NCBI RefSeq assembly: GCF_988243305.1
Contig: NZ_OZ547136.1
Length of the DNA stretch: 64,000 bases
Reading direction: 5' to 3' (one strand)
Notes under the pieces: model-generated
What the model saw: only the letters and a program-made list of their open reading frames with translations
Databases searched by the model: none
What the model was told of the DNA's origin: nothing
Translations under genes and position numbers: made by a program
Shown here: positions 54,118 through 54,492 of the stretch, one piece after another
Position numbering within the stretch: position 1 is the stretch's first letter
How the letters are laid out: the number at the start of each line of letters is the position of its first letter

Positions 54118-54492
54118 ATGAAAAAGGATCTGAAAACGCTGGCGCTGGCCAGACTGTCAGGGTTTCGTCATAAAACGGTGAAGGTGCCGGAATGGGGTAA
54201 TGTCAGCGTGGTGCTGCGGGAGCCTTCGGCAGAGGCCTGGTATCTGTGGCAGGAAGTGCTCAATGGTGATGGAGAGGATGACGATACCCTGTCGGTGGTG
54301 GCGAAAACCCGCCGTAACCTGGAAGCGGATGTGACGCTGTTCTGCGATGTCCTGTGTGATACGGATCTGCAGCGGGTGTTCGCTCCGGACGACCGTGAGC
54401 AGGTGCTGGCCGTCTATGGTCCGGTACATGCCCGGTTGCTGCGTCAGGCACTGGAACTGATCGCTGATGCAGAGTCGGCCAGAAAAAAGTAG
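54118..54492 (+). CDS. tail assembly chaperone G-like
   Basis: ATG 54118 after AAGGGGA; ends ...ESARKK at the slippery site. Confidence 0.7.
   Translation: MKKDLKTLALARLSGFRHKTVKVPEWGNVSVVLREPSAEAWYLWQEVLNGDGEDDDTLSVVAKTRRNLEADVTLFCDVLCDTDLQRVFAPDDREQVLAVYGPVHARLLRQALELIADAESARKK

What the first reader, a model, noticed from the sequence alone, without database searches (positions are those of the whole stretch)
54483..54489. Programmed -1 frameshift site (A AAA AAG) joining the G-like and T-like chaperone frames
The classic slippery heptamer sits 1 nt before the G-frame stop codon and the -1 frame remains open for another ~100 codons, the conserved arrangement of tail assembly chaperones upstream of the tape-measure gene. 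This is expected biology, recorded as a sequence-supported call.
Basis: partly seen in the sequence, partly recalled or inferred. Interest (0 to 1): 0.2.

Follow-up and report, generated by a model that had tools for sequence, protein, structure and literature searches.

The report
Tail chaperone G/GT frameshift site
This is the ordinary, well-known ribosome "slip" site that lets a lambda/HK97-like E. coli prophage make two tail-assembly chaperones (G and the longer GT) from one stretch of DNA; the call is correct and unsurprising, although public records do not annotate it.

Summary
AAAAAAG lies at 54483-54489 in A AAA AAG phase of a 124-codon gene (54118..54492). Its TAG stop directly abuts the heptamer. 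The -1 frame opens only 7 codons upstream (54468) and runs 102 sense codons to TGA at 54795-54797.

The upstream gene is an HK97 gp13-type tail assembly chaperone (Pfam Phage_TAC_1, 1.7e-61). The -1 frame encodes the Phage_tail_T domain (1.5e-18), the same family as lambda T. Major tail and tape-measure genes flank the pair.

Relatives at about 35-66% identity all keep T in the -1 frame with an in-phase shift motif: mostly A AAA AAG, once G GGA AAG, once A AAA AAA, otherwise A AAG. Peptide conservation starts at the shift site, nine codons before the ATG that RefSeq uses as the T start. That ATG has the weakest Shine-Dalgarno pairing in the cluster. The HK97 homologue is annotated "translated due to a -1 frameshift".

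No stimulatory RNA structure or internal SD was found, so a low-level lambda-type shift is expected. No expression data exist here.

Verdict: a genuine but ordinary G/GT programmed -1 frameshift, a known kind of element that is unannotated in this lineage. Interest is low.

The parts
53387..54103 (+). Major tail (tube) protein gene with a C-terminal Ig-like domain; the gene immediately upstream of G
   Evidence: phrog_158 major tail protein 6.3e-117; Pfam Ig_3/I-set at aa 151-229; weak Phage_TTP_11 and Phage_tail_2 hits. RefSeq names it 'major tail subunit' at the same coordinates.
54118..54492 (+). G: tail assembly chaperone, 124 aa, 14.0 kDa, the product of standard decoding; ends at TAG 54490-54492
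   Evidence: Pfam PF06222 Phage_TAC_1 1.7e-61 over the full length; phrog_344 tail assembly chaperone; 63% identical to HK97 gp13; anti-SD pairing at its start is -8.4 kcal/mol.
54468..54492 (+). The only stretch where the 0 frame and the -1 frame are both open (25 nt); a productive -1 shift must happen here
   Evidence: TGA at 54465-54467 in the -1 frame and TAG at 54490-54492 in the 0 frame.
54483..54489 (+). Slippery heptamer A AAA AAG in X XXY YYZ phase. tRNA-Lys on AAA (P site) and on AAG (A site) can both re-pair on AAA after a -1 slip.
   Evidence: Sequence. Invariant, together with the TAG, in 27 distinct close sequences. An in-phase shift motif sits at the equivalent place in all diverged relatives examined. 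PMC5009743 states that A_AAA_AAG is the most shift-prone of the heptamers tested in E. coli.
54489..54797 (+). T extension: 102 codons in the -1 frame plus TGA; translated only as the C-terminal part of GT. GT = join(54118..54489, 54489..54797), 226 aa, 25.4 kDa.
   Evidence: Pfam PF06223 Phage_tail_T 1.5e-18; phrog_337; phrog_14766 is a 224-position profile that matches G over positions 2-122 and T over 125-224; 58% identical to the T part of HK97 gp14; masses.
54516..54518 (+). In-frame ATG in the T frame, used as the T start codon in public annotation; probably an internal Met codon of GT
   Evidence: Anti-SD pairing is -3.5 kcal/mol, the weakest in the cluster (others -5.8 to -12.8) and at the 33rd percentile of all + strand ATGs. 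Conserved peptide V-x-x-P-x-x-x-F-L lies upstream of it. The Met is absent in KS9, Mcat13 and lambda.
54803..54826 (+). Terminator-like hairpin and U run between the T stop and the tape-measure start
   Evidence: RNA fold -10.8 kcal/mol: CCGC/GCGG core extended by A-U and G-U pairs, with a run of 7 U. The pattern scan did not report it. HK97 and HK446 have annotated terminators just upstream of their tape-measure genes, after the gp15 moron.
54845..58087 (+). Tape measure protein gene (1080 aa); the protein G/GT is expected to coat
   Evidence: Pfam Phage_HK97_TLTM 1.2e-90, TMP_3 5.8e-58, Tape_meas_lam_C 5.5e-18; phrog_339.

Best explanation
This is a programmed -1 ribosomal frameshift site of the lambda G/GT (HK97 gp13/gp14) type, in the tail module of a lambdoid E. 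coli prophage. Most ribosomes translating G (54118..54492) read AGA AAA AAG, stop at the abutting TAG and release the 14-kDa chaperone G. In a minority of ribosomes the two tRNA-Lys on AAA AAG slip back one base onto AAA AAA. Decoding then continues with GTA GCC CGC ... in the -1 frame for 102 codons and yields the 25.4-kDa fusion GT. By homology with lambda, the G part of both proteins binds the tape measure protein, the T domain of the rare GT recruits the major tail protein, and neither protein ends up in the virion. Shown here: the motif, its phase and frame geometry, the family membership of both halves, conservation of the arrangement, absence of an RBS for T, and absence of stimulatory RNA elements. 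Inferred: that slippage happens, that it is low-level (lambda's G:GT ratio is about 30:1), and the protein functions.
For: Motif and phase. Only 25 nt of frame overlap, and the heptamer lies within it. Both halves are the expected families (PF06222 at 1.7e-61; PF06223 at 1.5e-18), and a PHROG profile spans G plus T. The pair is flanked by major tail and tape measure genes. Comparative evidence from twelve relatives in about ten lineages (E. coli, Klebsiella, Cronobacter, Vibrio, Burkholderia, Bordetella and Moraxella phages, about 35-66% identity): T is always in the -1 frame although the distance from shift codon to G stop varies (0, 3, 15, 30 or 33 nt). Eight of the twelve have an in-phase X XXY YYZ heptamer (A AAA AAG, G GGA AAG or A AAA AAA). 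The rest have in-phase A AAG (GAA AAG, or GCA AAG TAA). The GT alignment is continuous through the junction, and the conserved motif K|V-x-x-P-x-x-x-F-L-M-x-L-A-L-R-x-G-R starts at the shift site, nine codons before the ATG. The window's -1 frame has no start codon in that segment. Lambda shows the same spacing, K|VFDGELSFALKLAREMGR against K|VARPEIRFLMRLALRLGR. The T-frame ATG has the weakest SD pairing in the cluster. The heptamer plus TAG is invariant in 27 distinct close sequences; A6 is found in 78 of the loci held and A7 in one. The HK97 record says 'translated due to a -1 frameshift', and HK446 and KS9 carry joined CDSs. Literature: lambda G/GT mechanism and ratio, A_AAA_AAG and A_AAG shiftiness in E. 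coli (PMC5009743).
Against: There is no expression evidence of any kind here. All six same-lineage records inspected (E2348/69 RefSeq, Stx2a_WGPS6, 569R3, JLK-2012, phi330, BP-4795) annotate T as a separate CDS from ATG 54516. That ATG is conserved in most relatives, so some independent or re-initiated T cannot be excluded. No downstream structure (z -0.55 and 0.13) or upstream SD-like stimulator (-3.0 kcal/mol) was found, so efficiency may be low; this matches lambda. The bare heptamer is common in the window. An A6 run could in principle also support RNA polymerase slippage, which would give the identical protein.
Confidence: 0.9

Rival explanations
1. T is an ordinary separate gene, as in public annotation. 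Ribosomes start at ATG 54516, either de novo or by re-initiating after terminating at TAG 54490-54492 (23 nt lie between the stop and the ATG), and make a free 93-aa, 10.3-kDa T protein. On this reading the heptamer is incidental.
For: An in-frame ATG exists and is conserved in most relatives. RefSeq/PGAP and the phage records annotate T this way. The 93-aa protein is recorded on about 1000 contigs, but that reflects gene callers, not experiments.
Against: Anti-SD pairing at this ATG is -3.5 kcal/mol, no better than a random ATG and the weakest in the cluster. T-frame peptide conservation extends nine codons upstream of the ATG, right back to the shift site. KS9, Mcat13 and lambda lack a Met at that position. 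T is in the -1 frame in every lineage despite junction indels, and an in-phase shift motif is always present. The HK97 homologue is annotated as a frameshift product. In lambda the T frame is described only as part of the frameshift product gpGT (PMC5009743).
Confidence: 0.05
2. GT is made by transcriptional slippage rather than ribosomal slippage. RNA polymerase occasionally adds one A in the A6 run, and ordinary translation of that mRNA gives the same GT protein.
For: One extra A produces exactly the predicted fusion. A deposited assembly (GCA_007714145.1) has A7 at this spot and encodes the identical 226-aa protein as a single ORF. Evi has an A8 run at the same site.
Against: The run is only six A; my recollection, not tested here, is that efficient slippage by E. 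coli RNA polymerase needs runs of about nine or more. Relatives keep the arrangement with motifs that are not homopolymers: G GGA AAG in mEp390, GAA AAG in HK97/HK446 and ENT39118, GCA AAG in Kp4882-3. Those motifs fit tRNA re-pairing, not polymerase stuttering. The conserved feature across relatives is the phase of the AAG codon, which matters to a ribosome and not to a polymerase.
Confidence: 0.03
3. The heptamer is a chance feature of a Lys-Lys C-terminus, T is not expressed from this prophage, or the module is decaying.
For: AAAAAAG is over-represented in the window generally, 30 copies against 13 expected. Many copies of this prophage are likely defective.
Against: Both frames encode intact domains that score well above the Pfam cut-offs. 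Variation among close relatives is mostly synonymous in G (16 synonymous, 6 not) and 10 synonymous to 7 not in T. The heptamer and stop are invariant. The same lineage occurs in Stx-converting phage records.
Confidence: 0.02

Closest known systems
Phage HK97 gp13 / gp14 (NP_037708 / NP_037707), tail assembly chaperone pair with an annotated -1 frameshift
   Same: Same Pfam families in both halves (PF06222 and PF06223). 63% identity in the G part and 58% in the T part. Same position between the major tail and tape measure genes. T is in the -1 frame, and the conserved motif V-x-x-P-x-x-x-F-L-M-x-L-A-L-R follows the shift.
   Different: The inferred HK97 shift motif is CGG GAA AAG, which is not a perfect X XXY YYZ, and it lies 15 nt before the G stop. 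The window has the canonical A AAA AAG directly abutting TAG. HK97 also has a moron (gp15) between GT and the tape measure gene, which is absent here.
Phage lambda gpG / gpGT (Levin, Hendrix and Casjens 1993; Xu, Hendrix and Duda 2004, 2013, 2014, as cited in PMC5009743)
   Same: Same gene order (V, G, T, H). A -1 shift near the 3' end of G. The T domain is in the same Pfam family, PF06223. The spacing from the shift-site Lys to the conserved F-x-L-x-L-A-x-x-x-G-R motif is identical. No RNA stimulator was found here. Expected roles: G binds the tape measure, T recruits the major tail protein.
   Different: Lambda uses G GGA AAG (junction) where the window uses A AAA AAG. Lambda G is Pfam TAC_2 (PF06894), not TAC_1, and BLASTP finds no significant similarity between the window proteins and lambda G or T. 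Lambda T is longer: 144 aa as annotated against 102.
E. coli dnaX gamma/tau frameshift
   Same: Identical slippery heptamer A AAA AAG, decoded by the same single tRNA-Lys (PMC5009743).
   Different: From my own knowledge, dnaX has an upstream SD-like element and a downstream hairpin that raise efficiency to about 50%, and the shifted frame terminates almost at once. Here neither stimulator is present, and the shifted frame adds a 102-residue domain.

Membership tests
G/GT-type tail assembly chaperone programmed -1 frameshift (lambda / HK97 kind) | Two overlapping ORFs lying between the major tail protein gene and the tape measure gene | tested here: met
   Major tail 53387..54103, G 54118..54492, T frame to 54797, tape measure 54845..58087; family assignments.
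G/GT-type tail assembly chaperone programmed -1 frameshift (lambda / HK97 kind) | The downstream ORF is in the -1 frame relative to the upstream ORF, and the two frames overlap near the 3' end of G | tested here: met
   -1 frame open 54468..54797; 25-nt overlap with G.
G/GT-type tail assembly chaperone programmed -1 frameshift (lambda / HK97 kind) | A slippery sequence (X XXY YYZ) in 0-frame phase inside the overlap | tested here: met
   A AAA AAG at 54483-54489 in the correct phase.
G/GT-type tail assembly chaperone programmed -1 frameshift (lambda / HK97 kind) | The downstream frame lacks its own translation start signal | tested here: inconclusive
   There is no start codon between 54468 and 54515, and the ATG at 54516 has only -3.5 kcal/mol anti-SD pairing, the weakest in the cluster. 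But an ATG does exist and is widely conserved. Only initiation mapping can settle it.
G/GT-type tail assembly chaperone programmed -1 frameshift (lambda / HK97 kind) | The arrangement and shift motif are conserved in homologues despite sequence divergence | tested here: met
   All twelve diverged relatives have T in the -1 frame with an in-phase heptamer or A AAG tetramer; homology is continuous through the junction.
G/GT-type tail assembly chaperone programmed -1 frameshift (lambda / HK97 kind) | Both G and a minor GT fusion protein are actually produced, at a fixed ratio of about 30:1 in lambda | not testable with these tools
   Needs western blot, mass spectrometry, a reporter assay or ribosome profiling.
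G/GT-type tail assembly chaperone programmed -1 frameshift (lambda / HK97 kind) | Both products are required for tail assembly and are absent from virions | not testable with these tools
   Needs genetics and virion proteomics.
Pfam PF06222 Phage_TAC_1 (HK97 gp13-type chaperone) | Score above the gathering threshold (25 bits) over the full profile | tested here: met
   206 bits, profile positions 1-124 of 124.
Pfam PF06223 Phage_tail_T | Score above the gathering threshold (25.9 bits) | tested here: met
   67.4 bits, profile positions 1-71 of 73. Lambda T (54.1 bits) and the HK97 gp14 T part (73.4 bits) hit the same model.
Pfam PF06894 Phage_TAC_2 (lambda gpG family proper) | Match to the lambda G profile | tested here: not met
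   No TAC_2 hit for the window G at E <= 0.01, while lambda G scores 206.9 bits. BLASTP of window G against lambda G finds nothing significant. So it is 'G-like' by position and role only.
dnaX-type stimulated -1 frameshift | SD-like element about 10 nt upstream and a stable hairpin a few nt downstream of the heptamer | tested here: not met
   Upstream anti-SD pairing -3.0 kcal/mol; downstream 45 nt z = 0.13; 91 nt z = -0.55.

The most novel reading that the evidence does not exclude
The most novel reading not excluded is that the locus makes three products rather than two. The 0-frame TAG abuts the slip site, and a widely conserved ATG lies 23 nt further on. Ribosomes that terminate G might therefore re-initiate and make some free T as well as G and GT. 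Alternatively, the A6 run may act as a DNA-level A6/A7 switch; one deposited assembly has A7 and encodes GT only, which could turn tail assembly of the prophage on and off. Either would be a small twist on the lambda paradigm.
Probability: 0.05. Interest if true: 0.3.

Novelty: already known. Interest (0 to 1): 0.1.

Why it matters
The scientific value is small. This is a textbook recoding event in a very common E. coli prophage lineage, found in 1245 of 5426 complete genomes and in many Stx-converting phage records. The practical value is for annotation. None of the six same-lineage records I inspected joins G and T; they list a 93-aa 'tail assembly protein T' that is probably never made as such, and the 226-aa GT protein is missing from them. 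The only deposited copy of the 226-aa fusion I traced comes from an assembly with an extra A in the run.

Tried and rejected
(1) RNA stimulators. I folded 91 nt and 181 nt around and downstream of the site, plus 45-nt downstream windows in 13 relatives. I also scored SD-like pairing upstream of the heptamer. Nothing was significant or conserved. The lambda row was one base out of register and I did not use it.

(2) Viral-contig search with the G protein. It returned 80 loci, all at least 98% identical. They were useless for deep conservation and served only for the invariance check.

(3) NCBIfam. No model matches G or T.

(4) Primary paper Xu et al. 2004 (PubMed 15469818). It is not held in the library, so I relied on the review PMC5009743 and on PMC10274946.

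(5) Deposited exact 226-aa fusion (TVS74273.1). I first considered it might be a slippage annotation. The DNA shows an A7 run, so it is a DNA-level indel or a homopolymer sequencing error.

(6) Geometry filter hit at 34179 (T TTT TTA). From the ORF translations, its -1 frame looks like an off-frame ORF inside a RusA-like gene; rejected without a family scan.

(7) Terminator scan. The pattern scan missed the hairpin at 54803-54826, so I folded it directly.

(8) The review text held no explicit statement that a 0-frame stop directly 3' of a shift site stimulates -1 shifting. That idea stays my own recollection and is not used as evidence.

Full report
**1. The observation**

Positions 54483-54489 on the + strand read AAAAAAG. 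The ORF that contains them most plausibly starts at ATG 54118. That start is preceded by AAGGGGA, with anti-SD pairing of -8.4 kcal/mol, and it matches the RefSeq CDS in an identical prophage. The ORF ends at TAG 54490-54492.

Its last codons are GCC AGA AAA AAG TAG, so the heptamer is in the phase a tandem -1 slip requires, A AAA AAG. The stop follows the heptamer directly.

After a -1 slip the next codon is GTA, starting at 54489. That frame is open for 102 sense codons and ends at TGA 54795-54797. Upstream, the -1 frame is closed by TGA at 54465-54467. The two frames are therefore open together over only 25 nt (54468..54492), and the heptamer lies inside that stretch.

**2. Is it more than chance?**

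The bare motif is not rare. The window holds 30 copies on the two strands against 13.1 ± 4.0 expected from shuffles.

The geometry is what sets this copy apart. Of the 30 copies, only 54483 combines 138 open 0-frame codons upstream, immediate 0-frame termination, a -1 frame that opened just 7 codons earlier, and 102 open codons downstream. A crude geometry filter passes 6 of 720 XXXYYYZ sites in the window.

Both frames at 54483 score as tail-chaperone domains. I did not scan the frames at the other five sites. I looked at one of them, 34179, and from the ORF translations its -1 frame looks like an off-frame ORF inside a RusA-like gene.

**3. What the two frames encode**

| Feature | Window coordinates | Assignment | Score |
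|---|---|---|---|
| 0-frame product (G) | 54118..54492 | Pfam PF06222 Phage_TAC_1, full length | 1.7e-61, 206 bits (cut-off 25) |
| -1 extension (T) | 54489..54797 | Pfam PF06223 Phage_tail_T | 1.5e-18, 67.4 bits (cut-off 25.9) |
| Tape measure | 54845..58087 | Phage_HK97_TLTM, TMP_3, Tape_meas_lam_C | 1.2e-90, 5.8e-58, 5.5e-18 |

- phrog_14766 is a 224-position profile. It matches G over positions 2-122 and T over positions 125-224, so it was built from annotated fusions.
- Upstream lies a major tail protein with a C-terminal Ig-like domain (53387..54103).
- Downstream of the tape measure gene come M-, L- and K-like genes, a lambda-like tail gene order.
- The region is 100% identical to prophages in many E. 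coli genomes, including E2348/69. Matches occur in 1245 of 5426 complete genomes.
- It is 96-99% identical to Stx-converting and related phage records such as BP-4795, 2851, YYZ-2008 and JLK-2012.

**4. Relation to characterised systems**

- The window's G is 63% identical to HK97 gp13, and its T part is 58% identical to the T part of HK97 gp14.
- The HK97 record describes NP_037707 as 'translated due to a -1 frameshift'.
- HK446 and Burkholderia phage KS9 also carry joined CDSs at this junction.
- Lambda T and the HK97 T part hit the same Pfam model as the window's T part. Lambda G belongs to a different model, PF06894 TAC_2.
- BLASTP finds no significant similarity between the window proteins and lambda G or T.

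The element is therefore a member of the HK97 gp13/gp14 family. It shares the T domain with lambda and is G-like in position and role only.

**5. Comparative test of the frameshift**

I examined twelve relatives from about ten lineages at roughly 35-66% protein identity. They are phages of E. coli, Klebsiella, Cronobacter, Vibrio, Burkholderia, Bordetella and Moraxella.

In every one, T lies in the -1 frame relative to G. This holds even though the distance from the shift codon to the G stop varies (0, 3, 15, 30 or 33 nt), which shows that indels have occurred around the junction.

| Shift motif (in phase) | Relatives |
|---|---|
| A AAA AAG | Evi, Pm34, vB_E253, PhiBP82.1, PHB09, Mcat13 |
| G GGA AAG | mEp390 |
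| A AAA AAA | KS9 |
| GAA AAG (in-phase A AAG) | HK446, HK633, ENT39118 (HK97 has the same junction as HK446) |
| GCA AAG TAA (in-phase A AAG) | Kp4882-3 |

The overlap is very short in the window (25 nt), Evi (10 nt), Pm34 (16 nt) and Mcat13 (16 nt). Each offers only 3-8 in-phase positions. Under uniform composition the chance of any X XXY YYZ is about 1/256 per position, or roughly 1-3% per lineage. That is my own estimate.

The GT alignment is continuous through the junction. The conserved motif K|V-x-x-P-x-x-x-F-L-M-x-L-A-L-R-x-G-R starts at the shift site. Lambda has the same spacing: K|VFDGELSFALKLAREMGR against K|VARPEIRFLMRLALRLGR.

In the window, those nine conserved codons lie where the 0 frame has already terminated and the -1 frame has no start codon. 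A frame change can explain their translation; initiation cannot.

Among 27 distinct close sequences the heptamer plus TAG is invariant. Variation is mostly synonymous in G (16 synonymous, 6 not), and 10 synonymous to 7 not in T.

**6. The rival: an independent start for T**

All six same-lineage records I inspected start T at ATG 54516 and none joins it to G. Three observations count against that start being used:

- Its anti-SD pairing is -3.5 kcal/mol. That is the weakest in the cluster (others are -5.8 to -12.8) and falls at the 33rd percentile of all + strand ATGs.
- The Met is replaced in KS9, Mcat13 and lambda.
- Conserved peptide lies upstream of it.

I cannot exclude some re-initiation after the TAG.

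**7. The rival: transcriptional slippage**

The exact 226-aa fusion I predicted is in the public protein collection as TVS74273.1. Its DNA, from assembly GCA_007714145.1, has A7 where the window has A6. Among the loci held, 78 have A6 and only this one has A7.

So this record reflects a DNA-level indel or a homopolymer sequencing error, not an annotated slippage event. It also shows that one extra A, in DNA or in mRNA, gives the same protein as a -1 ribosomal slip. Mass spectrometry therefore cannot tell the two mechanisms apart.

Transcriptional slippage is unlikely to be the main route for two reasons. The run is only six A. Relatives keep the arrangement with motifs that are not homopolymers (G GGA AAG, GAA AAG, GCA AAG), and what is conserved across them is the codon phase.

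**8. Mechanism and expected level**

No downstream structure is present: z = -0.55 for 91 nt, -0.13 for 181 nt, and 0.13 for the 45 nt starting 4 nt after the heptamer. No SD-like element lies upstream (-3.0 kcal/mol), and nothing of the kind is conserved in relatives.

The review PMC5009743 describes:
- low-level G-T frameshifting in lambda, with a 30:1 product ratio;
- A_AAA_AAG as the most shift-prone of the heptamers tested in E. coli;
- A_AAG as a minimal shift site;
- the single E. coli tRNA-Lys that reads both AAA and AAG.

I infer an unstimulated shift of a few per cent. I also recall, but could not document, that a 0-frame stop directly 3' of a shift site can increase shifting. If that applies here it is not conserved, because only four of the thirteen sequences have the stop abutting the shift codon.

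The functional roles are taken from lambda: G coats the tape measure protein, and the T part of GT recruits the major tail protein. They were not tested here.

**9. Verdict**

This is a genuine but ordinary G/GT-type programmed -1 frameshift site of the HK97 gp13/gp14 family, with the canonical A AAA AAG motif. Such sites are already known as a kind. This particular lineage is simply not annotated with the join. Interest is low (0.1), and the main use of the finding is to correct annotation.

Noticed in passing
window 54803-54826 (+): Terminator-like hairpin (CCGC/GCGG core extended by A-U and G-U pairs, -10.8 kcal/mol) with a run of 7 U. It sits in the 47-nt gap between the T stop and the tape-measure start, inside what should be a single late operon. 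HK97 and HK446 have annotated terminators just upstream of their tape-measure genes, after the gp15 moron; here the moron is absent.
   Followed up: partly
window 50857-51389 (+), inside ORF 49270..51855: A 162-nt (54-aa) tandem repeat, 3.3 copies at 95% identity, lies inside the 861-aa ORF that RefSeq calls 'phage portal protein'. The portal-like N-terminal part appears to carry a long repetitive C-terminal extension.
   Followed up: partly
L098 1860-1878 (GCA_007714145.1, VMRH01000005.1): One deposited E. coli assembly has A7 instead of A6 at the slip site. This fuses G and T into a single 226-aa ORF identical to the predicted frameshift product (TVS74273.1, named 'DUF4035 domain-containing protein'). 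It is either a homopolymer sequencing error or a real indel that would give a GT-only prophage.
   Followed up: yes
window 53387-54103 (+): The major tail protein carries a C-terminal Ig-like domain (Ig_3/I-set, aa 151-229). Public records name this gene inconsistently: 'fibritin protein', 'Hoc-like head decoration', 'immunoglobulin domain-containing protein', 'major tail subunit'.
   Followed up: partly
window 53309-53325 and 53350-53364 (+): Two terminator-like hairpins with T runs lie in the gap between the gp17-like tail completion gene and the major tail gene. HK97 has a 'putative terminator' annotated at the equivalent place.
   Followed up: no
window 24586-24637 (-), 32396-32571 (+), 38049-38238 (+), 37100-37172 and 37276-37352 (+): Rfam and ARAGORN hits in the early and regulatory part of the prophage: DicF RNA, sok antitoxin RNA, sRNA STnc100, tRNA-Met (cat) and tRNA-Arg (tct). 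The first ~20 kb of the window looks chromosomal, and the prophage seems to begin near an integrase-sized ORF at 20155..21285 (-).
   Followed up: no
window 54157-54927 (-): A 256-aa antisense ORF spans the whole G/T region on the minus strand. It is most likely a shadow ORF of the coding strand; I did not examine it further.
   Followed up: no
protein cluster of the 93-aa T: Some deposited members of the T cluster are named 'preprotein translocase subunit SecA', an apparent annotation error that has propagated in E. coli records.
   Followed up: no
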